Source: Pseudomonadota bacterium
Lineage (GTDB): Bacteria; Pseudomonadota; Alphaproteobacteria; Sphingomonadales; Govanellaceae
Direction: 5' to 3'
Assembly (NCBI GenBank): GCA_003577275.1
Contig: QEVO01000007.1
Span: forward strand, 68,840-132,839
Length of the DNA: 64,000 nucleotides
Under the pieces are notes generated by a model. It saw only the letters and a list, made by a program, of their open reading frames with translations. It made no database searches and was not told the origin of the DNA. The position numbers and the translations under genes are program-made. This document shows positions 12,148 through 62,708 of the stretch, in pieces (within the stretch, counting starts at the first letter, position 1; each line of letters starts with the position of its first letter).

Positions 12148-12180
12148 ATGCCCCCTTTCCCAAGCCATTAGCGCCATTTC

Positions 12181-12366: not shown

Positions 12367-12380
12367 TATTACATAAGTAT

Positions 12381-12422: not shown

Positions 12423-12435
12423 CTCATATTATATT

Positions 12436-14244
<1,809 letters not shown>

Positions 14245-14269
14245 CTAAGTGATCCGAGGCATCTCGTAT

Positions 14270-14283
14270 TTGACATATGTCAA
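14270..14283. promoter_or_regulatory. FNR/NNR-type box in the nirS / nirI divergent promoter region
   Basis: Perfect palindrome TTGACATATGTCAA. Its centre is about 62 nt upstream of the nirS ATG (14214) and about 95 nt upstream of the nirI ATG (14372). Confidence 0.7.
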
Positions 14284-14371
14284 GTGAAGGTGCCGACTTG
14301 CAGCTTACAAGGTCGACCCGTTGACGCAGTTAGACCCTCTTGCTTTGGTCGAGCGCTGGAGGCGCCCGTAG

Positions 14372-42427: not shown

Positions 42428-42919
42428 CTATAAAGGTATGGAGGAGAGATAAAAAGCTCCCTCGCTATCGATCAGGTCGATCCGTTTGGCGTGGATGCGA
42501 AAGGCGTCGCCTTGCGGTCGCAAGGTATAGCGGACCGCGCCTGCGTAAAGCGCGCGCGTCGGCTCCCCCGTTACCCGCAGGCGGAATTCATGAACGACGA
42601 GATTGGCGCGGACTTGAACGCTGCCGTCCTCGTCTTCCCCCATCACCTGGATATTGCTGATGAGGCGACAGGTGCGGGACGGCGGATGTTCGCTATAGGC
42701 ATTGGGCAATCTAAGGCGCTGGATGCGCGCCTCCATGAACGAGCGCTCTTCATCGAAATGCGCCATGCATTCTCCCCGCTCAGCAGCATCGGGAAGAACC
42801 GGCGCCCAGTAATGCGCATCCTCGTCATAAAGCTCCAGCCATTCGTCAAAACGCTTGTCGTCCAGCAGGGCTGCCTCGTGCGTCAGGAAATCTTCAATGC
42901 GGGATTTCAGGCCTGACAT
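42428..42919 (-). CDS. Aromatic-ring-hydroxylating dioxygenase beta (small) subunit
   Basis: 163 aa, NTF2-like. IEDFLTHEAALLDDKRFDEWLELYDEDAHYW is typical of ARHD beta subunits. It overlaps the alpha-subunit gene. Confidence 0.8.
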   Translation of the reverse strand: MSGLKSRIEDFLTHEAALLDDKRFDEWLELYDEDAHYWAPVLPDAAERGECMAHFDEERSFMEARIQRLRLPNAYSEHPPSRTCRLISNIQVMGEDEDGSVQVRANLVVHEFRLRVTGEPTRALYAGAVRYTLRPQGDAFRIHAKRIDLIDSEGAFYLSSIPL

Positions 42920-44211: not shown

Positions 44212-45293
44212 TGCTGCTCTCCAGCCAGAATATCGCGAAAGGCGCGGTTCAAATTTCCGCCTAAAATTTTGGCGGTATCAGTTTCGCTATAGCCGCGCCT
44301 CAAGAGCGCCGCGGCGACATTGAAGAAGCCGCGGGTATTGGAGACTTCCTTGATGTCCAGGCTGCGTTGCTTGCCGGGCGTTCGCAAGAATGGCGGCAGC
44401 GGCAGCATGTTTTGCGGCGGCAGCGCATCCCATCCCTGAATGGGGCCATCATGGCCGATGCCCACGTGGTCGATGCCGGCCACCTTCACCGCATGGGAAA
44501 TCTGGTCTATGTAATGCTCGATGGTGGTGGGGTCTTCTTCCGAGACCAGCACGCTCATGGGCGCGACGCAAAAGACGCCGCCGGTTTGGCCGATGGCGGC
44601 GATCACCTCATCGCTTTCATTGCGCTCGCTCTGCCGAATGGCGCGGGTGTTGCCATGGGAAATGATGACGGGCTTCGTCGTGACCCGGCACACATCCTCG
44701 ATGGTTTCCTCATTGGCATGGGATAGATCGATGATCACGCCGAGCTTGTTCATGCGCGCCACCACCTGCTTGCCAAACTCAGTCAGCCCGCTGCCCTTCG
44801 GCTCGCGAAAGCCAGCGCCGATCATGCCCTGGAAGTCGGAAGTGAGGAGCGATAATCGCAAGCCCATGCGGTGGAGATAGTCAACGTCATCGACGCGGCG
44901 GAAATGATCGCAACTATGAGCGCCGAGGATAATGCCGAGCCGGCCGGTGGCCACGGCGCGGTCGATGTCCTCCGGGCGAGTGATGCGCATGAGATGGGCG
45001 TCCATCTCGGCGATTTTGGCATTCCAGGCGGCGGTGCGCCTCTCAACCTCGCTAAAAAAATCCGGGCCGAAGGCGGGGTAGAAGAAGTTGCCGACATTAA
45101 GCCCGCTGCCTTCATAGGGTTTTAAATCAGCCACGCTGAGCTTTTCTGGCTCAAAGAGGATGTTCAGTTCGTTGCCTTGGCCCCAGAGAAAGACGGCGGC
45201 GCTGCTGATCACCAGGCCATCTCGAACCAACTTTTCCGCCGCTTCGCCGATGGCCTGGGGAGTGTCTGATGACTTGTGGGGAGTCACCTTCAT
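44208..45293 (-). CDS. Peptidase M19 (renal/membrane dipeptidase) family protein, non-canonical (P1)
   Basis: 361 aa. M19 core motifs GVIIDLSHANEETIEDV, PVIISHGNTRAI, GIDHVGIGHDG and LLRRGYSETDTAKILGGNLNRAF. The N-terminal DGHND zinc motif is not visible (LVISSAAV instead). Confidence 0.8.
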   Translation of the reverse strand: MKVTPHKSSDTPQAIGEAAEKLVRDGLVISSAAVFLWGQGNELNILFEPEKLSVADLKPYEGSGLNVGNFFYPAFGPDFFSEVERRTAAWNAKIAEMDAHLMRITRPEDIDRAVATGRLGIILGAHSCDHFRRVDDVDYLHRMGLRLSLLTSDFQGMIGAGFREPKGSGLTEFGKQVVARMNKLGVIIDLSHANEETIEDVCRVTTKPVIISHGNTRAIRQSERNESDEVIAAIGQTGGVFCVAPMSVLVSEEDPTTIEHYIDQISHAVKVAGIDHVGIGHDGPIQGWDALPPQNMLPLPPFLRTPGKQRSLDIKEVSNTRGFFNVAAALLRRGYSETDTAKILGGNLNRAFRDILAGEQQ

Positions 45294-45308: not shown

Positions 45309-47678
45309 TTAGAATTGGTACATCACGCTGGCGCCAAATTCCCGCGGTCTGCCAGCTTTCTGAACGTCGTAAAAGCCAAGGGTTGCCGATCCGTCAAGAC
45401 CGGACGTGATGTAATCCTTGTTGGTCAGATTCTGACCGAATACCGCCAGCCGCCAATGTCCGGATTCATCCTCAAAGGTGATGCGCGCGTCGACCAGACT
45501 ATAGCCATCCTGGGCGATGTTTTCCGAATTGGTGGCTTCGGGGTAGAATTTGGAGCGGTAGGAATAATCACCGCGGAAGGTCAGCTTGCCCAGATTGGAC
45601 AACGGCACCGTGTACTGCGCCGCCAGATTGAGCGTCCATTTGGGCGAGCGCATGAACTCCGCATCTATGGAAATCGGCACGCCCGGGTCGAGCTCCTTGA
45701 ACTTCGTGCTCAAATAACCAACGCCGCCCGAGAGTTCAAAATTCTCCACCGGCAGCGCCTGCATTTCCAGTTCAAAGCCCTGGGTTCTCGCCTTGGCGGC
45801 ATTATCCACCAGAACGGTCACGCTGCCGTTCGGATTGACGACGCCGACGGTCATCTGAATATCCGAATAGTCGTTATAGAAGACTGCGCCATTCAGCCGC
45901 AGGCGGCGCTCAAGCCATTCCGATTTCACCCCTGCTTCATACGATAAGACTTTTTCCGGATCGAAGGAGGTGAAGGCCGCCGCGTCGAAGGAGCGCCCGT
46001 TGTATCCGCCGCTCTTGAAGCCATGCGCCACGGAGCCGTAGACCATGACATCAGGGGTAATGCGGTACTCAAGCCCGGCCTTGGGCGAGGTGGACGACCA
46101 GGTATCCTTAAGATTGGTATTGGGCGGAGCGATATTCGCGCCGCTGTTCACCCGCCGACTGAGGACGGAGAGATAGTCTTTCGTCTCCCGGGTGTGACGG
46201 ATGCCCAGCGTTACGCTGAGCTCATCGGTCAGCGCGAAGCTGCCTTGGGCAAAAGCGGCGTAGCTGTCGATCTTGATCTTGTTGACAAATAGGAAATCTA
46301 GGTCAAAGCCGACGTTATAAGGGTTGCCGGCGCCGCCCAGGCATGGCGCGGGGAAGGGCGCAGGACAGACCACGCCTGGCGCCAAGGGAATGACGGCGGC
46401 GGGCAAGGCTTCCAGCGCGTTATAAAGGCCGCCAAACACCGTGCCGTTATTAATTTCCGTTGCCGACTCATGGAGATAATAGCCGCCCACCAACCAGTTC
46501 AGTCGATCATTGAAAGACAGGCCGGAGACTTGCAGCTCCTGGCTGAACTGCTCCTGGTCCAGATCATAATCCGCGCCATTCAGCACCATTGGCGTGCCGT
46601 CCGCATCGCGGCCGACAAAGCTGTCCATCGTGCGGTAGGCGGAAATGGATTTCACCGTGACCACCCCCGGCGACCAAGTGAGTGTCAGATGGCCGCCGTA
46701 AATATCCTGATCCGAGCGGTTGGTGCCGGTGGCGTAGCTATCATACCGGCCTTCGGTGGTAAAGTCGTCGGTGAGCGGCGTGCCGGCTGGCCCACCCACC
46801 AGCATATTCCATATGCCGGCGAATGCCGCACCGGCAATATTGTTGTAGGTCACCTTGACCGGGATGCCTTGGTCGCGATTGATGGTGAAATCAAAGCCGA
46901 GATCGGCGGTAAGGGTTTCGCTCAATTCAGCGCGCAGGCCTAAGCGGCCGGTGACATCCTCGACGCCGCCGGCTTCCGCAACCTTGGCGCCATCGGGATA
47001 GGACAGCCGCTTGCCAAACCCTCCCTTGTGCTTATAGGAAAACGCCGCCTTCCCCGCCACTTTGTCGCCCAACGGGCCGGACAGGTAGCCGCGAGCCTCG
47101 TACCGTTCCCGCTCGCCGGCGATGACTTCCAGACGTCCGGTCGTCACCTTGCTGGGCGTGGTGGTGACGATGTTGAGCGCGCCGCCGATGGTGTTCTTAC
47201 CAAACAGCGTGCCCTGGGGCCCGCGCAACACTTCGATGCGCTCGATATCCATCAGATCCATGATGCCGCCGGTTGAGCGGGCGACATAGACGCCATCGAC
47301 ATAGGTGCCGACGCCGGGGTCCGTGGTAATGATGAAGTCGTAAGCGCCGATGCCGCGGATGAAGATGGAAGCAGTGCTGGGGCTGGCGCTGTTGCCGGCG
47401 CCAAGACCGATATCCAGATTGGGCACATAGCGCGCGATCTGATCCAAGGCATCCATCGTGCGATCCCTGAGCCCATCGGCGCTGAACGCGGTCACCGATA
47501 CCGGCGTTTCCTGCAAGCGTTCTTCGCGCTTACGCGCCGTCACCAGAATTTCTTCTAACGACACGCTAGCATCGGCGCTCAGCGCCGGCGTCATGGGATA
47601 AAGCGCTGCTCCAACCAGCGCGCACAACGCAACATCAGTAATATACCCACGGCGGCGATTCCGATTTATCTGTCTCAT
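45309..47678 (-). CDS. TonB-dependent receptor
   Basis: 789 aa with a signal peptide. LEEILVTARKREERLQETPVSVTAF and RIEVLRGPQGTLFGKNTIGGALNI. C-terminal ...FGASVMYQF. Confidence 0.9.
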   Translation of the reverse strand: MRQINRNRRRGYITDVALCALVGAALYPMTPALSADASVSLEEILVTARKREERLQETPVSVTAFSADGLRDRTMDALDQIARYVPNLDIGLGAGNSASPSTASIFIRGIGAYDFIITTDPGVGTYVDGVYVARSTGGIMDLMDIERIEVLRGPQGTLFGKNTIGGALNIVTTTPSKVTTGRLEVIAGERERYEARGYLSGPLGDKVAGKAAFSYKHKGGFGKRLSYPDGAKVAEAGGVEDVTGRLGLRAELSETLTADLGFDFTINRDQGIPVKVTYNNIAGAAFAGIWNMLVGGPAGTPLTDDFTTEGRYDSYATGTNRSDQDIYGGHLTLTWSPGVVTVKSISAYRTMDSFVGRDADGTPMVLNGADYDLDQEQFSQELQVSGLSFNDRLNWLVGGYYLHESATEINNGTVFGGLYNALEALPAAVIPLAPGVVCPAPFPAPCLGGAGNPYNVGFDLDFLFVNKIKIDSYAAFAQGSFALTDELSVTLGIRHTRETKDYLSVLSRRVNSGANIAPPNTNLKDTWSSTSPKAGLEYRITPDVMVYGSVAHGFKSGGYNGRSFDAAAFTSFDPEKVLSYEAGVKSEWLERRLRLNGAVFYNDYSDIQMTVGVVNPNGSVTVLVDNAAKARTQGFELEMQALPVENFELSGGVGYLSTKFKELDPGVPISIDAEFMRSPKWTLNLAAQYTVPLSNLGKLTFRGDYSYRSKFYPEATNSENIAQDGYSLVDARITFEDESGHWRLAVFGQNLTNKDYITSGLDGSATLGFYDVQKAGRPREFGASVMYQF

Positions 47679-47813
47679 TGTTCTCCCCTATCTTGGTGGC
47701 TGGATTGTCCGAAGCTCGATTTATTGATTTTTTTAGGCATTGCCGACAGCGCGCATCTTATGGCCGCGTCGCTGCACTATAGTTCATAGTACCCCAGAAC
47801 CTGAGATATGCAG

Positions 47814-47829
47814 CTGTCAGTTTTGACAG
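47814..47829. promoter_or_regulatory. lux-type box (a): CTGTCAGTTTTGACAG
   Basis: CTGTCA-N4-TGACAG inverted repeat (CTG-N10-CAG), about 136 nt upstream of the TBDR start (47678) and 44 nt after the luxR-solo stop. Confidence 0.45.
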
Positions 47830-47872
47830 ATACGGGCCTGCTCTATGGTAGGAAGCTCACGAACAGAGCCGG

Positions 47873-48604
47873 TTAATGCACCGGCCCCAGGAGGCCAAGG
47901 TAGGATGCCCGGGCGATGGCGTGAACGCGATTGGTTGCCCCCAGCTTTTCACACACCTTGCCCAGGTGGAAGCGTACGGTGCGTTCCGACAAACTCATAA
48001 TCGTGGCAATTTCATCCAGCGTCTTGCCATGGGCGGCCAGGGACAGGCATTCATTCTCACGATCAGAGAGAGGATCGGCGACCAACTCCCTCGGCGTGAC
48101 CTTCTTAATCAGGTCGGCCATGCAACGATGCGACAACGCCAGCAGGTGATTTTCATGATGCCTGTTGCGCTCCATCAATTCTTGGACAGGCAAATAGGAG
48201 GAAAATACGATATAGCCAAATCCTCCGAGCGCCGAGTGGACCGGGATAGATACCCCGGAGCGCACGCCCAGCTCCTGCACGCAACGGTTAAACAAGCTGA
48301 TTTGCATGGCGCTGGAAGTTTTGCCAAGACCAACAATTAAATTCGGCTTGGTATCATATCCCCACCACACCGGCAGCGTGGTTTGCAAACAAGCCTGGTA
48401 CACCGGGTCAAGTTTATACCATTCGTCATGCAGATAATGATCTTGCCACGACGGATCGATATTGGATTCCGCGGACATGCCGAGCATCGTCGGACGCTGC
48501 ATCGCGCCATATCTATCCCGAGCCCGCGGCGCATAGACCATGCCCGCGCCCATGAAATCCTGTGTCGATCTTTGCTGATAAAGCGTTGAGAGTGCTTGTA
48601 TCAA
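47873..48604 (-). CDS. LuxR-family transcriptional regulator with N-terminal autoinducer-binding domain (LuxR solo 1)
   Basis: 243 aa. The autoinducer-domain-like region reads EWYKLDPVYQACLQTTLPVWWGY...GVSIPVHSALGGFGYIVF. The C-terminal HTH reads LSDRENECLSLAAHGKTLDEIATIMSLSERTVRFHLGKVCEKLGATNRVHAIA. There is no luxI-type synthase in the window. Confidence 0.85.
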   Translation of the reverse strand: MIQALSTLYQQRSTQDFMGAGMVYAPRARDRYGAMQRPTMLGMSAESNIDPSWQDHYLHDEWYKLDPVYQACLQTTLPVWWGYDTKPNLIVGLGKTSSAMQISLFNRCVQELGVRSGVSIPVHSALGGFGYIVFSSYLPVQELMERNRHHENHLLALSHRCMADLIKKVTPRELVADPLSDRENECLSLAAHGKTLDEIATIMSLSERTVRFHLGKVCEKLGATNRVHAIARASYLGLLGPVH

Positions 48605-48705
48605 GACACGTCTCCAATCACCTCGTGCACATTATTTTGTTATGTTTGAGTTTGAAAAAATGCTCCCATAACTTCGTCGGAAAGTCCAGAACCCATCAAG
48701 GGTCG

Positions 48706-48721
48706 GTGTCAAAACTGACAG
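48706..48721. promoter_or_regulatory. lux-type box (b): GTGTCAAAACTGACAG
   Basis: It is the reverse complement of box (a) except for one base. It lies in the divergent region between luxR solo 1 (start 48604) and the SDR gene (start 48797). Confidence 0.45.
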
Positions 48722-48796
48722 TTGCCCATAGTGATCGATGCCCCCAGGTATATGCTCATGACCATTAGCCGATCGCAATTCATGGATAAATAATCG

Positions 48797-49567
48797 ATGA
48801 AAATCAAAGGGATAGGAGCTATTATCACCGGCGCAGGCTCGGGCATGGGAATGGCCACGGCCAAGATGCTGGCGCAGGCCGGGGCGCGCGTCGCCTTCTT
48901 GGACATCAATGAAGGCGGCATCCGCGACGCTGCCAAGGATGCGGGCGGCGTCGCCCTTCCCTGCAATGTCGCGGACCCCAAGAGCCTGGAGCGGGCCATA
49001 GCCGACGCCATTTCCGCGGTGGGACCGGCGCGCATCCTGGTGACCTGCGCCGGAGTGGGACGGATGGAGCCGCTGATCGGCAGGGATAACGCCGAAGCGT
49101 ATAGCCAAATGGTCGACACCGTCATGGTCAATCTCATCGGCACGCTCAATGCCGTGCGTCTGGTGGCCAATGATCTGGCGCGACAGCCGCCGCTTGATGA
49201 TGGATCGCGGGGCGCGATGATCATGGTGGCCTCTGGCGCGGCTTTCGATGGCGTGCCGCAATCCGTACCCTACACGGCATCCAAGGGCGCGGTCGTCAGC
49301 ATGACCTTGGCGCTGGCGCGGGAGTTCGGCGATCTTGGCATCCGCGTCAACACCATCAGCCCCGGCGCTTTCGCCACCCCCATGATCAAAGCCGCGCCGA
49401 AGGAGATGCTGGACGTCATCAAAAACACAACGCCGTTTCCAAAACGGCCCGGCGTGCCAGAGGAATTTGCGGCTCTTGCTCTTCATATCTGCGAGAATGA
49501 TTTCATGAATGGCTCCGTGTTGCGCTTGGATGGCGCACACCGAACGGGTTATTTTTCCAATGGTTGA
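48797..49567 (+). CDS. Short-chain dehydrogenase/reductase (SDR, 3-hydroxyacyl-CoA dehydrogenase-like)
   Basis: 256 aa. AIITGAGSGMGMATA, VASGAA and YTASKGAVVSM (YxxxK). Confidence 0.9.
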   Translation: MKIKGIGAIITGAGSGMGMATAKMLAQAGARVAFLDINEGGIRDAAKDAGGVALPCNVADPKSLERAIADAISAVGPARILVTCAGVGRMEPLIGRDNAEAYSQMVDTVMVNLIGTLNAVRLVANDLARQPPLDDGSRGAMIMVASGAAFDGVPQSVPYTASKGAVVSMTLALAREFGDLGIRVNTISPGAFATPMIKAAPKEMLDVIKNTTPFPKRPGVPEEFAALALHICENDFMNGSVLRLDGAHRTGYFSNG

Positions 49568-49589
49568 GAGGGCTTAATCTTGCCCTCTC
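49566..49589. terminator. Hairpin between convergent SDR and M19-like genes (possible bidirectional terminator)
   Basis: GAGAGGGC-N8-GCCCTCTC, an 8-bp perfect stem that overlaps the SDR stop codon and lies 12 nt from the M19-like (P2) stop. Confidence 0.45.
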
Positions 49590-49600
49590 TTCCATCCCGC

Positions 49601-50704
49601 TCACGCAACAAAAATTTCCTTGAAGGCGCGCACGAAATTGCCGCCTAGGATTCCGGAAATATCCTGATCGCTGTAGCCGCGGCGGATCAATCCTTCCACC
49701 AAGACCCTCACCCGATCGTGGCCGCACAACTCGGGGATATCCATGCTGCGTTCACGATTTAGATAGGATACCTGCCCGGTGACCCCTTTGACATTATTGC
49801 ATGGATCAAAGCCGATCATTGGCGTCTCAAGGCCCAAGCCCACATGCCGGGGACCAATCAGCTGACAAACGTGGTCGAAGTGATCAATCACATGTTCGAC
49901 CGTTACCGGATCTTGAGGCCGCACCATGGGCCGCCAGTACATCAACCCGATGACGCCGCCGGTTGCGGCCAACGCCTTCAACATCTCATCAGAATTATTG
50001 CGCGAGGAAGGACAAATCGCCGCGGCATTGCCGTGAGTTATCAGCACCGGCCTTGACGAGGCGTCCATTGTCTCGCGCCGAGTCTTTAGCCCACAGTGCG
50101 ACACATCCACCGCCATGCCGATACTGTTCATCCGCTCCACCACGGCGCGGCCGAAGCGGCTCAGCCCGGCATCGCGATCATCGCCTTCATCGGTAGCCGT
50201 TCCTATCCGGCTCTGCGCAAAGCAAGTCAACAGCGCATGACGCAACCCCACTTCCGAATAGAAAAAGTTGATGTCATCGAGCGTGCGGAAAATCGCGCTG
50301 GCATTATGGGTGCCCACGAGGAATCCAATACGGCCGCTTTTCTGCGCCTTATCGAACGACTCTCTCTTGGTCAGCAGCATCATGTCATCCGCATGATCGG
50401 CGACAAAGGTATTCCAGCGGCCAAATACGCGCAGCGCTTCCTGCATCGGATTGGCGACCGGGCCCATGTTGGAAAAATCAAGAAACGGCTGCGGCACCAG
50501 AATGGCGTTGTATCCTTGTTTACGCCAATCGTCGATCATAATCTCCTCCAGCGGCTCAAGGCCGGTGAAGTTCATGCGAATGCCGCCATCGACGTGACTG
50601 ACGGTGGCTTCCGTAGCATTAAATACAAATGATTCCTCAACCAGCCTGGCGGCATGGTCCCAAGTCTTGCTGCTGCTATTGGCGGCTGTCGCTGTCTTAG
50701 TCAT
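49601..50704 (-). CDS. Peptidase M19 family protein, non-canonical (P2; tandem array member)
   Basis: 367 aa. GMAVDVSHCGLKTRRETMD, PVLITHGNAAAICPSSRNNSDEML, GPRHVGLGLETP and LIRRGYSDQDISGILGGNFVRAFKEIFVA. The N-terminus reads SFVFNATEA where DGHND is expected. Confidence 0.8.
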   Translation of the reverse strand: MTKTATAANSSSKTWDHAARLVEESFVFNATEATVSHVDGGIRMNFTGLEPLEEIMIDDWRKQGYNAILVPQPFLDFSNMGPVANPMQEALRVFGRWNTFVADHADDMMLLTKRESFDKAQKSGRIGFLVGTHNASAIFRTLDDINFFYSEVGLRHALLTCFAQSRIGTATDEGDDRDAGLSRFGRAVVERMNSIGMAVDVSHCGLKTRRETMDASSRPVLITHGNAAAICPSSRNNSDEMLKALAATGGVIGLMYWRPMVRPQDPVTVEHVIDHFDHVCQLIGPRHVGLGLETPMIGFDPCNNVKGVTGQVSYLNRERSMDIPELCGHDRVRVLVEGLIRRGYSDQDISGILGGNFVRAFKEIFVA

Positions 50705-50779
50705 GATATTTCCCCGATATGCGTTAAGGGTCGAAACTATTCACGCCGACGATTCTAGGAGGCAAGGGGCCACTGGCAG

Positions 50780-50795
50780 CTGTCAGTTCCGACAA
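50780..50795. promoter_or_regulatory. lux-type box (c), degenerate: CTGTCAGTTCCGACAA
   Basis: It lies about 76 nt upstream of the P2 start (50704). The left half-site is perfect and the right half-site has 2 mismatches. Confidence 0.35.
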
Positions 50796-50836
50796 AAATG
50801 AAGCAGTCATACCCGAATGAGAGGGAAAATTCAGCG

Positions 50837-50886
50837 ATAAAAAAACGCAAAGCAGCACGGCGGTACGCTTAATTGTACCACCGTGC
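50837..50886 (-). terminator. Rho-independent terminator after the P4-P3 pair
   Basis: The minus strand reads GCACGGTGGTAC-N8-GTACCGCCGTGC, a 12-bp stem with 1 mismatch, followed by TGCTTTGCGTTTTTTTATC. It lies about 110 nt after the P3 stop (50997). Confidence 0.65.
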
Positions 50887-50996
50887 CAGATATCGTCCTG
50901 TTGGCAACCTTGCTTATTATTTTAAATGCTGACGCATAAAATCCAGGGCAAGTCCTCTTCGAATGAAGCTATGTGTCAATCTGTCGTTAATTCCAT

Positions 50997-52115
50997 TTAA
51001 GCGACAAAGATTTCCTTAAAGACTCGCACAAAATTGCCACCTAGGATTCCAGTAATATCCTGGTCGCTGTAACCGCGACGAAGCAGTCCTTCCACCAGGG
51101 TTCGCACCCGATCGGCGCCACACAGCTCGGGAATGTCCATGCTGCGAACTTGCTTTAAGTACGACACTTGCCGCGCCGGACCCATGGAATTTTCGCAAGC
51201 GTCAAAACCGACCATCGGCGTTTCAAGCCCTAATCCTACGTGCTGCGGGCCAATAAGTTGGCACACGTGATCAAAGTGATCGAGCACATGCTCGACCGTC
51301 ACCGGGTCTTCCAGCCGCACCATGGGTCGCCAGAACATCAGGCCAATGACGCCGCCAGTTGCGGCCATCGCCTTCAACATCTCATCGGAATTGTTGCGCG
51401 AGGTGGGGCAGATCGCGGCCGCATTGCCGTGGGTGATCAATACCGGCTTTGATGAAGCGTCCATGGTCTCGCGCCGGGTTTTAAGTCCGCAGTGCGATAC
51501 GTCCACCGCCATGCCGAGGGAATTCATGCGCTCCACCACGGCGCGGCCGAAACGGGTCAAGCCGCCGTCGCGGCCGTCGCCTTCATCAGCAGAGGTGCCG
51601 ATCCGATTTTGGCCAAAACAGGTTAAGAGCGCATGCCGCAGCCCCACTTCCGAATAGAAAAAATTGATATCGTCCAGTGTGCGGAAAATCTCGCCGCCAC
51701 AGTGGGTTCCCACCAGAAGACCGATGCGGCCGCTTTTTTGCGCCTTGTCAAAGGACTCCCGCTTGGTCAGCAGCATCATGTCATCGGCATGATCGGCAAC
51801 AAAGGTGTTCCAACGCCCAAACACGCGCAATGCTGTCTCCAGCGGATTAGCGACCGGTCCCATATGGGCCGGGTCAAGAAATCCCTGCGGTATCAAAATG
51901 GCGTTATAGCCCTCCTTGCGGTATTCATCAATCAGTCGGTTGGTCAAGGGCCCGCTGCCCGTGAAATCCATGATATGCTTGCCATCAATCTCATGGGCAG
52001 GGGCCTCCGTGGTATTGAACACGAATGACTGCTCAACCAGCCTGGCCGCATGGTCGCGTGTTTCATTCATGGTATCAGCAGTCGCTGCTGTCTTAGCCAT
52101 TGTACTTCCTATCAT
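50997..52115 (-). CDS. Peptidase M19 family protein, non-canonical (P3; tandem array member)
   Basis: 372 aa, collinear with P2 and P4. GMAVDVSHCGLKTRRETMD and ...ILGGNFVRVFKEIFVA. The N-terminus reads SFVFNTTEA. Confidence 0.8.
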   Translation of the reverse strand: MIGSTMAKTAATADTMNETRDHAARLVEQSFVFNTTEAPAHEIDGKHIMDFTGSGPLTNRLIDEYRKEGYNAILIPQGFLDPAHMGPVANPLETALRVFGRWNTFVADHADDMMLLTKRESFDKAQKSGRIGLLVGTHCGGEIFRTLDDINFFYSEVGLRHALLTCFGQNRIGTSADEGDGRDGGLTRFGRAVVERMNSLGMAVDVSHCGLKTRRETMDASSKPVLITHGNAAAICPTSRNNSDEMLKAMAATGGVIGLMFWRPMVRLEDPVTVEHVLDHFDHVCQLIGPQHVGLGLETPMVGFDACENSMGPARQVSYLKQVRSMDIPELCGADRVRTLVEGLLRRGYSDQDITGILGGNFVRVFKEIFVA

Positions 52116-52144
52116 CTGTTAAGTGTTTGCGCTGCGCCTAGTTT

Positions 52145-53248
52145 CTAGGCGACAAAGATTTCCTTGAAAGCGCGCACGAAATTGCCGCCCAATATTCCGG
52201 CAATATCCTGATCGCTGTATCCGCGGCGGATCAGTCCTTCTACCAGCGTCCGCACCCTGTCATGGCCGCATAACTCGGGAATATCCATACTGCGAACCTG
52301 TTTTAAGTACGACACTTGCCGCGCCGGCGTCATGGTATTCTCGCAGTTATCAAAGCCGACAACCGGCGTCTCGAACCCCAAGCCCACATGTTGCGGGCCG
52401 ATCAGTTGACAGACATGATCGAAGTGATCAAGCAGGTGTTCGATCGTCACCGGATCCTCCAGCCGCACCATGGGCCGCCAGAACATCAACCCGACGACGC
52501 CGCCCGTGGCCGCCATCGCCTTCAACATTTCATCGGAATTGTTGCGCGAAGAGGGGCAAATCGCCGCGGCATTGCCATGGGTGATCAATACCGGCTTCGA
52601 GGAGGCGTCTATGGCTTCGCGACGAGTCCTAAGCCCGCAGTGGGATACGTCCACCGCCATGCCGATGCTGTTCATGCGCTCCACCATGGCGCGGCCGAAG
52701 CGGGTCAGCCCGCCGTCGCGGTCGTCGCCCTCGTCTACGGAAGTGCCCACTCTGTTTTGCCCAAAGCAAGTGAGCAGCGCATGGCGCAATCCCATTTCGG
52801 TATAGAAAAAGTCGATATCATCCAGGGTGCGAAAAATTTCACCGGCGTGATGGGTTCCCACCAAGAATCCAATGCGACCTGTCTGTTGCGCCCTATCAAA
52901 TGATTCGCGTTTGGTCAGCAGCATCATGTCATCGGCATGATCGGCGACATAGGTATTCCAGCGGCCGAATACCCGCAAACACATCTCCCGCATGTTGGCG
53001 GCCGGACACATGTTGGAGGGATCAAGGAATCCTTGCGGAATCAGGATCGCGTTATACCCCTGCTGACGCCATTCGTCGATCAGACGCTCTTCCAATGGCT
53101 CCAGTCCAACGAAATTAACCCGTGGTTTGCCGGAGGCGTAACTGACGGATGCTTCCGTCGTGTTGAACACGAATGACTCGGCGACCAACCGCGCCGCATG
53201 TTCGCGCGCGTCACCTTCGTTGCTGCTTTTTACCGCTGCCTTGGCCAT
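52145..53248 (-). CDS. Peptidase M19 family protein, non-canonical (P4; tandem array member)
   Basis: 367 aa. GMAVDVSHCGLRTRREAID and ...ILGGNFVRAFKEIFVA. A 29-nt gap to P3 suggests co-transcription. Confidence 0.8.
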   Translation of the reverse strand: MAKAAVKSSNEGDAREHAARLVAESFVFNTTEASVSYASGKPRVNFVGLEPLEERLIDEWRQQGYNAILIPQGFLDPSNMCPAANMREMCLRVFGRWNTYVADHADDMMLLTKRESFDRAQQTGRIGFLVGTHHAGEIFRTLDDIDFFYTEMGLRHALLTCFGQNRVGTSVDEGDDRDGGLTRFGRAMVERMNSIGMAVDVSHCGLRTRREAIDASSKPVLITHGNAAAICPSSRNNSDEMLKAMAATGGVVGLMFWRPMVRLEDPVTIEHLLDHFDHVCQLIGPQHVGLGFETPVVGFDNCENTMTPARQVSYLKQVRSMDIPELCGHDRVRTLVEGLIRRGYSDQDIAGILGGNFVRAFKEIFVA

Positions 53249-53358
53249 ATGATATCCCCAATATAATATTTAACTAGGTGCTGTGCGCATTGTTCTGCCG
53301 GCTATCTCATGCGCCATGCTTGCCCGATCAATTCTAAAGAACAATGCAGTATTCACAG

Positions 53359-53374
53359 CTGTCACATCCGACAG
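53359..53374. promoter_or_regulatory. lux-type box (d): CTGTCACATCCGACAG
   Basis: It lies about 110 nt upstream of the P4 start (53248) and 36 nt after the luxR solo 2 stop. Confidence 0.4.
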
Positions 53375-53409
53375 GCTGAACAGAATGAATAAAATGAACG
53401 CAATAGAGC

Positions 53410-54153
53410 CTAGTGAATGGGCCCCAGCAGCCCGAGATAGGAAGCGCGAGCGATGGCGTGCGTACGGTTAACCGTGCCCAGCTTATCGCAGGCATTGCCC
53501 AGATGGAAGCGGACAGTGCGCTCGGAAAGGTCGAGGATAACCGCAATATCTTCCAAAGTCTTGCCATGAGCCGCCAGCGTCAAACATTCAACTTCGCGGG
53601 AAGATAATGAAATCCCCACAGGTTTTGACACTTCGACATGATTAATGATCTTGGAAAAATAGCGATGCGCCAATGACATGATCTGGTCTTGATGGTGCTC
53701 GTTGCGGTCGAGAAGTTCCTGAATAGGTATGCAAGAAGGAAAAACGATATACCCGAAACCGCCCAACGCGGAGTGGAGCGGGATCGATACGCCAGAACGG
53801 ACCCCCACTCTCTCGGCGCAGCTATGGAACAAACTGACCTGCGCGGCGCTGGATGTCTTGCCAAGTCCCACGATCAAATTTGGCTTGGTGTCATACCCCC
53901 ACCATACCGGCAACGTCGTCGTCAAGCATGCCTGGTAGACCGGATCGATTTTGTAGTGTTCGTGTTGGAGATAATAGTCGCCCCACCAGGGAGCGAGCTC
54001 GCATTGCGACGACATGGTAATAAGCGTTGGCCGCTGCATGGCGCCGGAACGATCGCGGGCGCGAGGCGCATAACTCAAACACGCGCCTTCAAAGTCCGTA
54101 ATGGCGACTTCCTCGTATAGCGATGACAGGGATTCGGTTACAATGCCGCTCAC
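53410..54153 (-). CDS. LuxR-family regulator with autoinducer-binding domain (LuxR solo 2)
   Basis: 247 aa, collinear with solo 1. HYKIDPVYQACLTTTLPVWWGYDTKPNLIVGLGKTSS is near-identical. The HTH reads LSSREVECLTLAAHGKTLEDIAVILDLSERTVRFHLGNACDKLGTVNRTHAIA. Confidence 0.85.
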   Translation of the reverse strand: MSGIVTESLSSLYEEVAITDFEGACLSYAPRARDRSGAMQRPTLITMSSQCELAPWWGDYYLQHEHYKIDPVYQACLTTTLPVWWGYDTKPNLIVGLGKTSSAAQVSLFHSCAERVGVRSGVSIPLHSALGGFGYIVFPSCIPIQELLDRNEHHQDQIMSLAHRYFSKIINHVEVSKPVGISLSSREVECLTLAAHGKTLEDIAVILDLSERTVRFHLGNACDKLGTVNRTHAIARASYLGLLGPIH

Positions 54154-54299
54154 TGCATGACCTCATCCAGCTTGTGCCCGCCCGCGCCAGCGGTCCACCT
54201 ACAGCCCGTCAAGACGGCTGCTTCAGTATCAATTTTCTCTAGCCGGCAGTAAAATGCTCACACAGCTTACCAGCATTGTCCAGATTTTATCCGGAACAA

Positions 54300-54315
54300 G
54301 TGTCAGAAGTGACAG
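54300..54315. promoter_or_regulatory. lux-type box (e): GTGTCAGAAGTGACAG
   Basis: It lies about 150 nt upstream of the luxR solo 2 start (54153) and 66 nt after the acyl-CoA synthetase stop. Confidence 0.4.
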
Positions 54316-54380: not shown

Positions 54381-56204
54381 TCAAGCGAGTTCTATCACAT
54401 TCCCACCGCCGGCATAGAGTTCAGCGACCTTATCCGCCCGCCGCCGCAAGGTGGTGCGCTGGTTCAAATACCCCTTATCGGTGGTCTCGCCGGCGTCGAT
54501 GTCCGGCGGCGTCGCCAACAACAGGAGGCGGGCAATCTGGGTGGAATTTCCCGGGTATTGCCGATTATAGACGGCTGCCTTTTCCCGCAAGGCGCGTTGC
54601 AGGTCCGGGTGCCTGAGCACCTCCTCAATCGAGAGTTTCGCCTCATGATCGCCAATGAGACTACGGCAGGCCGCCACACTGGGAAACGCCAGGACGCTCA
54701 GGTCGGCTTGGTTTTCCCCCGCGATGGCCACATCCAACAAGAGCGGTGACAGCGCATTGACAAAAGCGGTGCGCACCGCGCCCACATTGACCCAGGTGCC
54801 GGATTGCAATTTGAAATTCTCGCTGATGCGGCCATGGAATTTCAGCCCAGCTTCCGGCGCATCGGGATGGCGAAATATCACGGCATCGCCGGTGCAATAA
54901 AATCCGTCCTCATCGAAAGCCTTCTTTGTCGCCTCTGGATCCTCCAGATAGCCCGAGGTCACGCTGGGGCCGCGCACGCGAATTTCCAGCCGCTCCTGAA
55001 CCAGGGCCAGCTTGATCTCCACCCCCGGCACCGGCAGGCCAATGACGCCGCTCTCATTCACCAGAAAATAAGAGGACATCGCCAGGGGACCGGTCTCCGT
55101 CGCCCCCCAGCCCGAGGTCATCGGCACCACGCGACCCAGAGTTTTCTGCGATACCGCCTGCAGGCGGTCCCACGTGGTTTGCGGCAAGGCGGCGGCGCCG
55201 TAAAACATCAATTCAAGGCGGGAGAAAAAAGTTGCCGCCAGCTCATCATCTTCCTCAAGGAACGGCAACAGCGCCTCGTAGCCGGCGGGCACATTGAAAT
55301 AAATGGTGGAAGCAATCTCTTTCAGATTATCGACCGTGGTGCGTATCAGCGCCGGCGTCGGCTTGCCGCCGTCGATGTAAAGGGCGCCGCCGTTGCGCAG
55401 CACCAGATTGAAATTATGATTGCCGCCGAAGGTGTGGCTCCACGGCAGCCAATCCACCAGAATCGGCGGACGAACTTCGACGAATGGCCAGCTGCGCGCC
55501 AGCGACTGCTGATTGGCGCACAGCATGCGCTGGCTGTTGACGACGCCTTTGGGATTGCCGGTCGATCCCGAGGTGAACAGAATTTTCGCCACCGTATCTT
55601 CGTTGACGGAACCATGCGCTCGCCGCACCCGCTCGTCATGCCCACGAGAGGAAAGAAGATCATGGAATTTCTTGCCGCCGCCGCCATCACCGCTGACAAC
55701 CGGGATCTTGGCCTCGCCGATGGCCGCCAGCGCTGCGGCAAAAGGCGCGTGAGCCTCAACATAGATAAGCCCCGGTTTGACCAAATCGACGATATGGCGA
55801 AGCTTGGCGAAATCCCTGGACATCAAGCTGTAGGCCGGCGACACCGGCGCCACGGGAATGCCCACATGCAACGCCGCCAGGGTTAGGAGCGCGTGATTGA
55901 TGCTATTGCCGGAAAGAATGGCGACCGGCCGTTCGGCGCTCAAGCCGAAATCGAGAAGGGCGCCGGCCAGCGCGACCACGATGTCCGTGGTTTCACCATA
56001 GGTCAGCCGCCGCCAGGAAGACGGCCCGTCGCGTTCAGCCAAAAAAAGCCGTTCTGGGGCTTGCCGCTGCCAACGCAACAGGTGCTCGGTCAGGGCTTTG
56101 GGGTATTCACCCATCTCCACCCGCGAACGTAAAATACAGCCGCCCTCTTTACGCGGCGTCAATTCGATATCTACCGGCGCAAACAGTCCTGCATCCTTAT
56201 GCAC
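54381..56204 (-). CDS. AMP-dependent acyl-CoA synthetase/ligase (feruloyl-CoA-synthase-like architecture)
   Basis: 607 aa. AMP-binding motif ILFTSGSTGNPKGV, followed by GWGATETGP, YCTGD and a long C-terminal extension. The substrate cannot be assigned from the sequence alone. Confidence 0.85.
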   Translation of the reverse strand: MHKDAGLFAPVDIELTPRKEGGCILRSRVEMGEYPKALTEHLLRWQRQAPERLFLAERDGPSSWRRLTYGETTDIVVALAGALLDFGLSAERPVAILSGNSINHALLTLAALHVGIPVAPVSPAYSLMSRDFAKLRHIVDLVKPGLIYVEAHAPFAAALAAIGEAKIPVVSGDGGGGKKFHDLLSSRGHDERVRRAHGSVNEDTVAKILFTSGSTGNPKGVVNSQRMLCANQQSLARSWPFVEVRPPILVDWLPWSHTFGGNHNFNLVLRNGGALYIDGGKPTPALIRTTVDNLKEIASTIYFNVPAGYEALLPFLEEDDELAATFFSRLELMFYGAAALPQTTWDRLQAVSQKTLGRVVPMTSGWGATETGPLAMSSYFLVNESGVIGLPVPGVEIKLALVQERLEIRVRGPSVTSGYLEDPEATKKAFDEDGFYCTGDAVIFRHPDAPEAGLKFHGRISENFKLQSGTWVNVGAVRTAFVNALSPLLLDVAIAGENQADLSVLAFPSVAACRSLIGDHEAKLSIEEVLRHPDLQRALREKAAVYNRQYPGNSTQIARLLLLATPPDIDAGETTDKGYLNQRTTLRRRADKVAELYAGGGNVIELA

Positions 56205-56465
56205 GTCACTTCCTCTCAGCCCTCAATTTTTCCGGCGCAATATGCACTATACCGCACTATTAATATAGCGCGTTAAGAAGCCATGCCAAGTTGGCTATAG
56301 TGACAGGCGTTCAATACAGCACGCACGACCTGCCCAGAAACCGCAAAGGAAGTCTTAATACTTTGAAAAATAACAACTTATTTTTAACATTAGCATAGGG
56401 TAACACAGCGACCCCCATCGCTTCGGCGCCAGCCGTGCAATGCTGAACCCGATAACGCCCCCGCC

Positions 56466-62396: not shown

Positions 62397-62708
62397 CTGA
62401 CGACAAAACCACAGTCAGGGTATCACTTCCGCTCATTGCTTTGTCACCAAAGGCTGGAAGTACAGCCCAATATTTTAGTGTTATTATCTAGTAAAGTTGA
62501 ATATCATGGATTTTTTGGCTAGGTTATATTTCGCCGACAGGATTTGGGTGGTTTTCCTGACTAGAAGCGCCTCAATGCAGGAAGTAATGTCTAAGATATT
62601 GAAATATTGTAAAATATACTATAAAATAACACTATATTGTTGGAATTCTGCCTCACCGCTGTCGCATACGGCAACCGAGTCGCAGCAAAGGGGATTATCA
62701 CTAGTCTA

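What the first reader, a model, noticed from the sequence alone, without database searches (positions are those of the whole stretch)
47814..54315. Two LuxR solos and five copies of a CTGTCA-N4-TGACAG box: a candidate quorum- or signal-controlled catabolic regulon
Seen: two paralogous regulators with autoinducer-binding-type N-domains (47873..48604, 53410..54153) and no LuxI/HdtS/LuxM-type synthase in the window.
Within the same 6.5 kb, and only in intergenic DNA, there are five related 16-mers.
- (a) 47814 CTGTCAGTTTTGACAG
- (b) 48706 GTGTCAAAACTGACAG, the reverse complement of (a) but for one base
- (c) 50780 CTGTCAGTTCCGACAA
- (d) 53359 CTGTCACATCCGACAG
- (e) 54300 GTGTCAGAAGTGACAG
They fit the minimal lux/las-box geometry CTG-N10-CAG (established). 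They sit upstream of the TBDR-M19-dioxygenase operon, in the luxR1/SDR divergent promoter, upstream of P2, upstream of P4-P3 and upstream of luxR2.
A 9-position core (TGTCA-N4-NGACA) is expected well under once per window by chance.
Inference: the solos autoregulate and control uptake and catabolic genes in response to an acyl-HSL or another, possibly non-AHL, ligand.
Basis: partly seen in the sequence, partly recalled or inferred. Interest (0 to 1): 0.68.

Follow-up and report, generated by a model that had tools for sequence, protein, structure and literature searches.

The report
LuxR-solo operator boxes controlling catabolic genes
Five copies of a 16-base palindrome in this Sphingomonadales genome are very probably the DNA-binding sites of two neighbouring quorum-sensing-type (LuxR) receptors that have no signal synthase nearby and that switch on uptake and breakdown genes resembling a bacterial auxin-degradation pathway, a use of this receptor type not found in the literature searched here.

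Summary
TGTCA-N5-GACA occurs at five sites in 64 kb, where chance predicts 0.22 strand hits. All five lie within 6.5 kb of intergenic DNA, at the stated coordinates.

The boxes behave as operators of the two LuxR-type regulators:
- A matrix built only from unrelated metagenome loci ranks the window's boxes 1-4 and 6.
- Orthologous loci keep the same gene order and boxes at the same promoters.
- A sister clade of the regulator uses CTGACA-N4-TGTCAG, so both half-sites changed together with the protein.
- At the TBDR and M19 promoters the box ends exactly 22 nt before a TAnnnT hexamer. That centres it near -42.5, the lux-box position.
- At the luxR promoters the box lies about 60 nt upstream of a promoter that has its own -35 and extended -10.

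The proteins have the quorum-sensing receptor fold. They keep five of the six hallmark pocket residues (WYDPW, with Gly changed to Ser). No LuxI gene is present in the window or in the neighbourhoods I examined.

The regulated oxygenase is closest to Variovorax IadDE, the auxin-degradation enzyme, and the operon also holds an IadI-type hydrolase and SDRs. The ligand is unknown. I favour a substrate or pathway intermediate over a quorum signal.

Verdict: real, and a new variant of a known kind.

The parts
47814..47829 (.). Box a, CTGTCAGTTTTGACAG. Proposed operator of the promoter for the TBDR-M19-Rieske-cyclase-SDR operon.
   Evidence: Top PWM score of 23.4 bits. Conserved in L002, L001 and L010.
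47786..47791 (-). Putative -10 hexamer TACTAT of the TBDR operon promoter, 22 nt after box a.
   Evidence: It lies in a block conserved with L002 and L001. No transcription start site has been mapped.
48706..48721 (.). Box b, GTGTCAAAACTGACAG, in the divergent luxR1/SDR promoter region.
   Evidence: PWM score 21.1 bits. Orthologous intergenic regions in L002, L001, L005 and L008 carry one or two boxes.
50780..50795 (.). Box c, CTGTCAGTTCCGACAA. Proposed operator of the promoter of M19-like gene P2.
   Evidence: PWM score 14.9 bits. It is followed, in gene orientation, by 22 nt and then TAGAAT.
50752..50757 (-). Putative -10 hexamer TAGAAT of the P2 promoter.
53359..53374 (.). Box d, CTGTCACATCCGACAG. 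Proposed operator of the P4-P3 operon promoter.
   Evidence: PWM score 19.8 bits. It is followed by 22 nt and then TAGAAT.
53331..53336 (-). Putative -10 hexamer TAGAAT of the P4-P3 promoter.
54300..54315 (.). Box e, GTGTCAGAAGTGACAG, upstream of luxR2. The box ends 17 nt before a TGGACA -35 hexamer, which is followed by an extended -10 (TGTGAGCAT).
   Evidence: PWM score 20.6 bits. The same layout is seen at luxR1 and in L002 and L001.
56291..56306 (.). Possible sixth, degenerate box (reverse complement CTGTCACTATAGCCAA), 23 nt upstream of TATATT and ahead of the acyl-CoA synthetase gene. This promoter also has a good -35 of its own (TTGGCA).
   Evidence: (10.3 bits, within the shuffle range). 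Weak evidence: treat it as a candidate only.
47873..48604 (-). luxR1: a LuxR-type regulator with an autoinducer-binding domain and a GerE helix-turn-helix domain.
53410..54153 (-). luxR2: a paralogue 65% identical to LuxR1, with a nearly identical recognition helix.
45309..47678 (-). TonB-dependent receptor, first gene of the operon downstream of box a.
   Evidence: The luxR-to-TBDR gene order is kept in L002, L007 and L008.
44208..45293 (-). M19-like (2i5g-like) amidohydrolase-fold protein in the TBDR operon.
42907..44211 (-). Rieske oxygenase alpha subunit. The closest solved relative is Variovorax IadD.
   Evidence: Score 286 bits against 180 bits for the next-best solved structure.
42428..42919 (-). 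Rieske oxygenase beta subunit. The closest solved relative is IadE.
41513..42415 (-). Cyclase / kynurenine-formamidase-family hydrolase (PF04199). By annotation this is the same family as IadI.
40748..41497 (-). Short-chain dehydrogenase, last gene of the operon.
   Evidence: It occupies the same position in L002.
48797..49567 (+). Divergently transcribed SDR, resembling type II 3-hydroxyacyl-CoA dehydrogenases. It is the most constant neighbour of this LuxR clade.
   Evidence: The divergent SDR/luxR pair is present in L001, L002, L005 and L008.
49601..50704 (-). M19-like paralogue P2, downstream of box c.
50997..52115 (-). M19-like paralogue P3, second gene of the P4-P3 operon.
   Evidence: The gap to P4 is 29 bp.
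52145..53248 (-). M19-like paralogue P4, downstream of box d.
50853..50888 (-). Intrinsic terminator (14-bp stem followed by a T-run) that ends the P4-P3 operon just upstream of box c. P2 therefore needs its own promoter.
54381..56204 (-). Acyl-CoA synthetase, a possible additional regulon member and possible IadF analogue.
   Evidence: Regulon membership is uncertain.

Best explanation
The five 16-bp palindromes (consensus CTGTCA-N4-TGACAG) are lux-type operators bound by dimers of LuxR1 and/or LuxR2. These are two paralogous receptors of the autoinducer-binding LuxR family with no adjacent signal synthase.

At the three catabolic promoters (the TBDR operon, P2 and P4-P3) the box directly abuts a poor -35 region and ends 22 nt before the -10 hexamer. 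Its centre is therefore near -42.5, and the liganded regulator would recruit RNA polymerase as a class II activator, as LuxR does at the lux operon. At the two luxR promoters the box lies about 60 nt upstream of a promoter that has its own -35 (TGGACA) and an extended -10. This suggests class-I-type autoregulation.

The regulon covers outer-membrane uptake (TBDR), an IadDE-like Rieske oxygenase, an IadI-type hydrolase, SDRs and four M19-like amidohydrolase-fold paralogues. It looks like a pathway related to the Variovorax iad (indole-3-acetate) route for an indole- or aryl-carboxylate-type compound or its amide conjugates.

The effector is most likely the substrate or an early pathway intermediate, not a self-made quorum signal.

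Shown here: the sites, their statistics, their conservation, the change of both half-sites with the regulator clade, the spacing, the protein fold and the pocket residues. Inferred: binding, activation, the substrate and the ligand.
For: Statistics:
- Five sites where chance predicts 0.22 strand hits, all in the 10% of the window that is intergenic.
- A PWM built only from sites in L001 and L002 ranks the window boxes 1-4 and 6, at 14.9-23.4 bits. The shuffle maximum is 15.6 bits.

Conservation:
- Gene order SDR<->luxR->TBDR->(M19, Rieske alpha/beta, cyclase, SDR) is kept at 71% and at about 49% regulator identity.
- Boxes sit in the same intergenic regions.
- In the TBDR promoter alignment only the box and the -10 block are conserved.

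Co-variation:
- Clade A regulators go with half-site CTGTCA.
- Clade B regulators (45-50% identical) go with CTGACA in about six independent loci, and never with T at position 4.
- The recognition helix differs between clades: ERTVRFHLG against TSTVRFHLR.

Spacing:
- TAnnnT sits at offset 22 in 5 of 5 clade A TBDR/M19 promoters and at offset 23-24 in 5 of 5 clade B promoters.
- The background rate is 0.0069 per position.
- The lux box is centred at -42.5 (PMC3376562).

Protein:
- Autoind_bind plus GerE domains.
- Best PDB sequence matches are RhlR, LasR, QscR, CviR and TraR.
- The AF2 model has pLDDT 85, and its best fold matches are QscR, LasR, TraR, RhlR, SdiA and CviR.
- The residues equivalent to TraR W57, Y61, D70, P71 and W85 are conserved.

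Solo status: no synthase domain in the window or in any neighbourhood examined.

Pathway:
- Rieske alpha/beta are closest to IadD/IadE.
- The iad pathway composition comes from bioRxiv 10.1101/2025.10.25.684584.
- Even a 35%-identical relative sits next to MFS-M19-cyclase.
Against: - No binding or expression data exist, and no transcription start site is mapped. The -42.5 and -60 positions rest on predicted -10 hexamers.
- The SDR-side promoter has a different spacing (27-28 nt to a -10-like hexamer).
- Box-to--35 spacing at the luxR promoters differs by 4 nt between the window and L002/L001.
- The pocket keeps both AHL hydrogen-bonding residues, which on current cartography rules argues for an AHL ligand (PMC8546723).
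- Identity to IadD is only about 45%. Sphingomonad clusters of that similarity have been called 'fragmentary iad-like', and in Sphingopyxis Root154 the iad-like operon was not IAA-induced (PMC11630574).
- The M19-like proteins lack canonical metal ligands, so their chemistry is unknown.
- Only 64 kb of the genome could be scanned for further sites.
Confidence: 0.72

Rival explanations
1. Classical or eavesdropping quorum sensing. The solos bind an acyl- or aryl-homoserine lactone made by a LuxI encoded elsewhere in the genome or by neighbouring species, so the catabolic regulon is controlled by population density. The operators and promoter architecture are as in the best explanation, and only the ligand differs.
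For: - The equivalents of TraR W57 and D70, which hydrogen-bond the lactone carbonyl and the amide NH, are kept, as are Y61, P71 and W85 (role of these residues from PMC8546723).
- The fold matches AHL receptors.
- The box has the CTG-N10-CAG geometry shared with the CviR-type 16-mer.
- Sphingomonads often carry luxI genes (PMC4288048).
Against: - This small clade is always embedded in the same catabolic gene set and never sits next to a synthase in the independent loci examined. That pattern is typical of pathway-specific regulators.
- The equivalents of LasR Y56 and S129 are I/L and V.
- The equivalent of TraR G113 is Ser, and the equivalent of LasR A127 is Tyr. Both would narrow the acyl tunnel (the steric effect is my inference).
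- A conserved insertion of about 10 residues follows the WW motif.
Confidence: 0.2
2. The palindromes are not LuxR sites. They would instead be operators of another regulator encoded elsewhere, or RNA/DNA hairpins (terminators or repeat elements) that happen to flank the luxR genes.
For: - Three boxes (a, d, e) lie 36-66 nt downstream of the stop codon of the preceding gene.
- A symmetric change of both arms would also preserve a hairpin.
- A6-to-G variants keep G-U pairing on the sense strand.
- Three of the six folds are more stable than shuffled controls (z from -2.2 to -3.7).
Against: - The hairpins are weak and inconsistent, at -3.9 to -13 kcal/mol. Two fold worse than shuffles, none has a T-run, and the terminator scan flags none of them.
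- Specific bases, not merely pairing, are conserved.
- Box b and the L001 site at 12924 lie in divergent promoter regions, where no upstream transcript reads through them.
- The fixed 22-nt spacing to -10 hexamers has no hairpin explanation.
- The half-site type tracks the LuxR clade and its recognition helix.
- A luxR gene of this clade is the only regulator present at every locus that has the boxes.
Confidence: 0.05
3. The two LuxR proteins act without a ligand or as apo-repressors (EsaR/ExpR style). They would bind the boxes without ligand and be released by it, or act as constitutive activators whose level is set by autoregulation.
For: - LuxR-family members of this mode are known (my own background knowledge).
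- The boxes at the luxR promoters are not at the class II position.
- A second box lies in the 5' untranslated region of the TBDR gene in L001 and L002, where a bound protein would block transcription rather than activate it.
Against: - The catabolic promoters have poor -35 hexamers (CTGnnn) directly abutting the box. This is the layout of activator-dependent class II promoters, not of repression.
- The pocket residues are under strong conservation across the clade, which argues for a ligand.
Confidence: 0.1

Closest known systems
LuxR / lux box of Vibrio fischeri, and class II LuxR-type activation generally
   Same: - An inverted repeat with CTG...CAG ends.
- Centred near -42.5 and overlapping a weak -35 (lux box position from PMC3376562).
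- A receptor with an autoinducer-binding domain plus a GerE helix-turn-helix domain.
   Different: - No adjacent luxI.
- A 16-bp core (CTGTCA-N4-TGACAG) rather than the 20-bp lux box.
- The targets are uptake and catabolic genes.
- Identity to classical receptors is about 35% at most.
CviR box of Chromobacterium (CTGNCCNNNNGGNCAG)
   Same: The same 16-bp length and CTG-N10-CAG frame with a 4-bp centre. The motif string is present in the literature.
   Different: The inner half-site bases differ: TCA/TGA (or ACA/TGT in clade B) instead of NCC/GGN. CviR is paired with CviI and binds C6/C10-HSL.
Plant-associated-bacteria LuxR solos (OryR, XccR, XagR, PsoR, PipR) that regulate the adjacent pip peptidase gene
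   Same: A solo LuxR with a conserved gene neighbourhood, activating an adjacent hydrolase gene in response to a non-self compound (PMC3824090; PMC8546723).
   Different: - Those solos have substitutions at W57 and Y61. This clade keeps both.
- The neighbours here are TBDR, an IadDE-like oxygenase, M19-like proteins, a cyclase and an SDR, not pip.
- It is a different clade: only 13 cluster representatives reach E<=1e-30 among 17,270 LuxR-type hits.
Variovorax iad auxin-degradation locus (IadCDE, F, G, H, I, J) under the MarR repressor IadR
   Same: - The Rieske alpha/beta subunits are the closest solved relatives.
- A kynurenine-formamidase-family hydrolase, dehydrogenases and an acyl-CoA synthetase are present in both.
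   Different: - Identity is only about 45%.
- There is no IadC reductase, thiolase or ABC binding protein here.
- Uptake is by a TBDR.
- M19-like paralogues are an addition.
- The regulator is a LuxR-type activator instead of a MarR repressor.
QscR and SdiA (AHL-binding solos)
   Same: Best fold matches. Both are solo receptors that regulate a small linked or dispersed regulon.
   Different: They respond to AHLs from other systems. Their gene contexts and boxes are unrelated to those seen here.

Membership tests
LuxR-type quorum-sensing receptor family (autoinducer-binding domain plus GerE HTH) | N-terminal PF03472 domain and C-terminal PF00196 domain in a protein of about 250 aa | tested here: met
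   Both proteins pass the Pfam gathering thresholds for both domains.
LuxR-type quorum-sensing receptor family (autoinducer-binding domain plus GerE HTH) | Three-dimensional fold of solved AHL receptors | tested here: met
   AF2 model with pLDDT 85. The top 33 Foldseek PDB matches are full-length QscR, LasR, TraR, RhlR, SdiA and CviR chains, at E from 1e-13 to 1e-9.
LuxR-type quorum-sensing receptor family (autoinducer-binding domain plus GerE HTH) | Six hallmark pocket residues (TraR W57, Y61, D70, P71, W85, G113) | tested here: inconclusive
   Five of six are kept: W53, Y57, D66, P67 and W81 in LuxR1. The Gly is Ser124 in nearly the whole clade.
LuxR-type quorum-sensing receptor family (autoinducer-binding domain plus GerE HTH) | Binds an N-acyl homoserine lactone | not testable with these tools
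   This needs ligand-binding or reporter assays.
LuxR solo (orphan) | No cognate luxI adjacent to the gene | tested here: met
   No PF00765 hit in the window ORFs scanned or in the precomputed Pfam lists for about 10 kb on either side in the related loci.
LuxR solo (orphan) | No luxI anywhere in the genome (strict definition) | not testable with these tools
lux-type box (operator of LuxR-family activators) | Dyad-symmetric site of 16-20 bp with CTG...CAG ends | tested here: met
   Two of the five are perfect at both ends, and three have one end changed.
lux-type box (operator of LuxR-family activators) | Located about -42.5 at activated promoters, overlapping the -35 | tested here: inconclusive
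   There are exactly 22 nt from the box to TAnnnT at the three catabolic promoters and their orthologues. The start sites are predicted, not mapped.
lux-type box (operator of LuxR-family activators) | Bound by the cognate LuxR protein | not testable with these tools
   Only indirect support is available: the half-site type co-varies with the regulator clade.
iad (Variovorax-type) indole-3-acetate degradation locus | IadD/IadE-type Rieske oxygenase | tested here: inconclusive
   IadD and IadE are the closest solved structures (286 and 77 bits). Identity is only about 45%, the range called 'moderate' or 'fragmentary iad-like' in PMC11630574.
iad (Variovorax-type) indole-3-acetate degradation locus | Full gene set iadC-K2 with a MarR regulator | tested here: not met
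   No reductase, thiolase, ABC binding protein or MarR was found in the region. A cyclase-family hydrolase, SDRs and an acyl-CoA synthetase are present.
Peptidase M19 (renal/membrane dipeptidase) | Binuclear zinc site: N-terminal HxD, bridging Glu and two His | tested here: not met
   Pfam matches start at profile position about 41-76, so the HxD region is not matched. The bridging Glu of human DPEP1 aligns with His. The two distal His are kept. The closest solved protein is the uncharacterised amidohydrolase 2i5g.

The most novel reading that the evidence does not exclude
This rare LuxR clade may be an AHL-receptor fold converted into the dedicated sensor of a catabolic pathway. Its ligand would be a lactone- or lactam-bearing indole derivative, for example the lactone that IadCDE-type oxygenases make from indole-3-acetate, or an auxin-amide conjugate.

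The retained Trp and Asp would then grip a ring carbonyl and an NH just as they do in an AHL.

That would link the quorum-sensing receptor family to auxin or indole turnover. It would also give a second, activator-based regulatory solution for iad-like pathways alongside MarR repressors.
Probability: 0.18. Interest if true: 0.8.

Novelty: new variant of a known kind. Interest (0 to 1): 0.55.

Why it matters
The ligands of most LuxR solos are unknown, and few solos have a defined regulon.

This clade comes with several things already in hand:
- a clean operator motif;
- a natural specificity switch (T:A to A:T in both half-sites, together with three changes in the recognition helix);
- a compact target set;
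- a strong hint about the chemical class of the effector.

That makes ligand discovery tractable: test the promoters with pathway substrates against AHLs. It would also show that the AHL-receptor fold has been recruited as a pathway-specific catabolic activator.

Separately, it flags a family of M19-like proteins with altered metal ligands. These are co-regulated with an IadDE-like oxygenase and are candidates for a new amide- or lactam-cleaving activity.

Tried and rejected
1. Terminator or hairpin reading of the palindromes. Rejected: the folds are weak and inconsistent, there are no T-runs, some sites are untranscribed, and the promoter spacing is fixed.

2. A seventh site at 58052 inside the MFS gene (15.9 bits). 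It has no -10 hexamer at the right offset and lies in coding DNA, so it is probably chance.

3. The first genome-collection query, with the 17-sequence alignment, failed for lack of a conserved stretch. The narrower alignment found only the window's 93%-identical twin MAG and one distant gammaproteobacterial locus among 185,579 species. The family is therefore absent from cultured references, and no annotated record could be used.

4. The metagenome scan added only six short loci.

5. tblastn against plasmids found only classical LuxRs at 35% identity or less.

6. Literature searches turned up no description of this clade or regulon.

7. L019, the locus of the 35%-identical relative, showed no recognisable box. 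The contig is too short to include the first promoter.

8. NCBIfam gave no specific name for the M19-like proteins or the cyclase.

9. Comparison with the 93%-identical L010 is too close to be informative, beyond showing that changes fall only in box spacers.

Full report
**Observation.**
- The core TGTCA-N5-GACA gives eight strand hits, which are five sites. Dinucleotide-preserving shuffles give a mean of 0.22 and a maximum of 2.
- Allowing up to three mismatches to CTGTCA-N4-TGACAG, no other site in the 64 kb has fewer than three.
- All five sites are intergenic, although only 10.2% of the window is intergenic.
- Both regulators carry Autoind_bind plus GerE domains and are 65% identical to each other.
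- Pfam scans of about 48 long ORFs across the window found no autoinducer synthase.

**Gene map.** All genes listed are on the minus strand except the SDR at 48797.
- Box a, then TBDR (45309-47678), M19-like (44208-45293), Rieske alpha (42907-44211), Rieske beta (42428-42919), cyclase-family hydrolase (41513-42415) and SDR (40748-41497).
- Box b lies between luxR1 (47873-48604) and the divergent SDR (48797-49567). That SDR resembles type II 3-hydroxyacyl-CoA dehydrogenases.
- Box c precedes M19-like P2 (49601-50704).
- Box d precedes M19-like P4 then P3 (52145-53248 and 50997-52115). This operon ends at a strong terminator at 50853-50888.
- Box e precedes luxR2 (53410-54153).
- A degenerate half-box at 56291 precedes the acyl-CoA synthetase gene. 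I treat it only as a candidate.

**Independent support from relatives.** The regulator family is small.
- The word-indexed search gave 22 proteins.
- A full phmmer pass over 1.84 billion cluster representatives gave 17,270 LuxR-type hits, of which only 13 reach E<=1e-30.
- Among 185,579 species genomes, only a 93%-identical Sphingomonadales MAG (BROCD004) and one distant gammaproteobacterial MAG were found.

Metagenome contigs nevertheless supplied independent lineages.
- L002-4 and L017 (71% identity) have SDR<->luxR->TBDR->M19->Rieske alpha/beta->cyclase->SDR.
- L001 (71% by BLASTP, 73% in the multiple alignment) has SDR<->luxR.
- L008/9 (about 49%) have SDR<->luxR->TBDR->Rieske alpha/beta->M19.
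- L005/6 (48%) have SDR<->luxR plus two further paralogues, an M19 gene, hydantoinase-type genes and a TBDR.
- L007 (42%) has SGL->luxR->TBDR.
- L019 (35%) has MFS-M19-cyclase-luxR.
- The 33% relative, P0022, is a genuine TraR with TraM and tra genes. It marks the edge of the clade.

Boxes occur in the same intergenic regions in all loci that have enough sequence. A weight matrix made only from the L001 and L002 sites ranks the window's boxes 1-4 and 6, at 14.9-23.4 bits. The best score in shuffled windows was 15.6 bits.

**Half-site and regulator change together.**
- In clade A (the window, L001, L002) every clear half-site is CTGTCA or a close variant, with T at position 4.
- In clade B (L005, L008, L012, L014, L015, L016) it is CTGACA, or CTGCCA, and never T. 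The full site there is CTGACA-N4-TGTCAG.
- Both arms therefore changed together while the CTG...CAG frame stayed fixed.
- The recognition helix differs between the clades at three positions: SERTVRFHLG against STSTVRFHLR.
- A symmetric change would also preserve a hairpin, so I tested that alternative. The RNA folds are weak and inconsistent, and two of six fold worse than shuffles. None is called terminator-like. Several sites lie in divergent promoter regions, upstream of the predicted start sites.

**Promoter architecture.**
- Read towards the downstream gene, the box at the TBDR, P2 and P4 promoters is followed by CTGnnn, a poor -35. After exactly 22 nt comes TACTAT, TAGAAT and TAGAAT respectively.
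- The orthologous TBDR promoters of L002 and L001 have TATCAT at offset 22.
- Five clade B promoters have TAnnnT at offset 23-24.
- The background frequency of TAnnnT is 0.0069 per position.
- With a -10 hexamer at -12 to -7, the box spans -50 to -35 and is centred at -42.5. This is the position of the lux box (PMC3376562).
- In the three-lineage alignment of the TBDR promoter, only the box (plus CTG) and the block GTAyyATGAAyTATAnTGCA are conserved.
- The luxR promoters differ. The box is followed after 17 nt (window b and e) or 21 nt (L002, L001) by TGGACA, then 14 nt, then TGn-GAGCAT. This is a promoter with its own -35 and an extended -10, which puts the box centre near -60 or -64.
- I read this as class II activation of the catabolic genes and class-I-type autoregulation. 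Start sites are predicted, not mapped.

**The receptors.**
- The best sequence matches in the PDB are RhlR, LasR, QscR, CviR and TraR.
- An AlphaFold model (pLDDT 85) matches only AHL receptors at the top of a Foldseek PDB search.
- From the LasR alignment and the family alignments, the residues equivalent to TraR W57, Y61, D70, P71 and W85 are conserved. G113 is Ser.
- LasR Y56 and S129 correspond to I/L and V, and LasR A127 corresponds to an invariant Tyr.
- A conserved insertion of about 10 residues follows the WW motif.
- Both AHL hydrogen-bond residues are kept. By the cartography rules of PMC8546723 this favours an AHL-like ligand, but the Ser and Tyr would narrow the acyl tunnel. That last point is my inference.

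**What the regulon does.**
- The Rieske alpha and beta subunits are closest to Variovorax IadD and IadE. The alpha subunit scores 286 bits against 180 for the next solved structure, at about 45% identity.
- In Variovorax, IadCDE oxidises indole-3-acetate to a lactone. IadJ and IadH are dehydrogenases, IadF is an acyl-CoA synthase, and IadI is a kynurenine-formamidase-type amidase. The locus is repressed by a MarR (bioRxiv 10.1101/2025.10.25.684584).
- The window operon has the oxygenase, a PF04199 hydrolase and SDRs. An acyl-CoA synthetase and a 3-hydroxyacyl-CoA-dehydrogenase-like SDR lie nearby. Sister loci place boxes in front of SGL-type lactonase genes.
- Caution is needed. 'Fragmentary iad-like' clusters of this similarity are known in sphingomonads, and in Sphingopyxis the iad-like operon was not induced by IAA (PMC11630574).
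- The five M19-like paralogues lack the HxD region and have His in place of the bridging Glu. Their best solved relative is an uncharacterised amidohydrolase, so 'dipeptidase' is not a safe label.

**Comparison and verdict.** This is a LuxR-solo system with lux-type operators, which is a known kind. PAB solos that activate the adjacent pip gene are the nearest conceptual parallel (PMC3824090). The following features are new relative to what I could find:
- a rare, well-delimited clade with a WYDPWS pocket;
- its constant coupling to TBDR, an IadDE-like oxygenase, M19-like proteins, a cyclase and an SDR;
- the paired operator and recognition-helix switch between sub-clades;
- the dual promoter architecture.

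The ligand is undetermined. I put about 0.2 on an AHL or quorum signal. Most of the rest goes to a substrate or pathway intermediate. That includes about 0.18 for the specific idea of a lactone- or lactam-bearing indole derivative.

Noticed in passing
window 44208-45293, 49601-50704, 50997-52115, 52145-53248, 56466-57677: Five paralogues of an M19-like protein lie within 14 kb. Pfam matches omit the N-terminal HxD metal-binding region, and the bridging Glu of renal dipeptidase aligns with His. The closest solved structure is the uncharacterised amidohydrolase 2i5g. P2, P3 and P4 are close tandem copies, about 77% identical at the nucleotide level.
   Followed up: partly
window about 47770-47792; L002 8741-8762; L001 12960-12980: A block of about 20 nt, GTAyyATGAAyTATAnTGCA, covers the predicted -10 and start region of the TBDR promoter. 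It is conserved across three lineages, which is more than a -10 hexamer needs. It might be a second operator or an initiation-region element.
   Followed up: no
L002 8794-8809; L001 13015-13030 (compare window about 47705-47725): Relatives carry a second box, ATGCCAnnTTTGACAG followed by TTATCC, in the 5' untranslated region about 45 nt before the TBDR start codon. In the window only a degenerate half (CGGACAATCC) remains. This is a possible repression or roadblock site.
   Followed up: partly
window 19992-22709 (-) and 29310-31904 (+): Two large MalT/STAND-type LuxR-family regulators (NTPase plus TPR plus GerE) lie next to further TBDR, Rieske and 2-oxoacid-dehydrogenase genes. The window is a dense catabolic island with six TBDR genes.
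   Followed up: no
window 5706-17637: A respiratory and denitrification cluster: cytochrome cd1 nitrite reductase (12436-14235), a haem-copper oxidase subunit I, a UbiA-family prenyltransferase, SCO1/SenC, a fused cytochrome b / 4Fe-4S / FlpD-like protein (6196-7752), and ApbE.
   Followed up: no
window 58052-58067: GTGCCAAATCCGACAG inside the MFS transporter gene scores 15.9 bits with the external matrix, just above the best shuffle. It has no -10 hexamer at the expected offset. It is probably chance, but an internal promoter for the downstream M19-like gene is not excluded.
   Followed up: partly
L005 10823-11665 and 13395-14219: The clade B locus carries three LuxR-type paralogues beside an M19 gene, a glyoxalase-fold gene and hydantoinase A/B (oxoprolinase/caprolactamase-type) genes. 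This is another set of ring-amide-opening enzymes under the same box type.
   Followed up: partly
L011 10695-10710: Next to a 32%-identical LuxR in a Gammaproteobacteria MAG lies CTATCAGACCTGATAG. This is a third symmetric variant on the same 16-bp frame.
   Followed up: no
window 61389-63155 compared with L008 160-2842: An arginase-family gene with a divergent AsnC/Lrp regulator flanks the cluster both in the window and in the clade B locus L008. This suggests a wider conserved neighbourhood.
   Followed up: no
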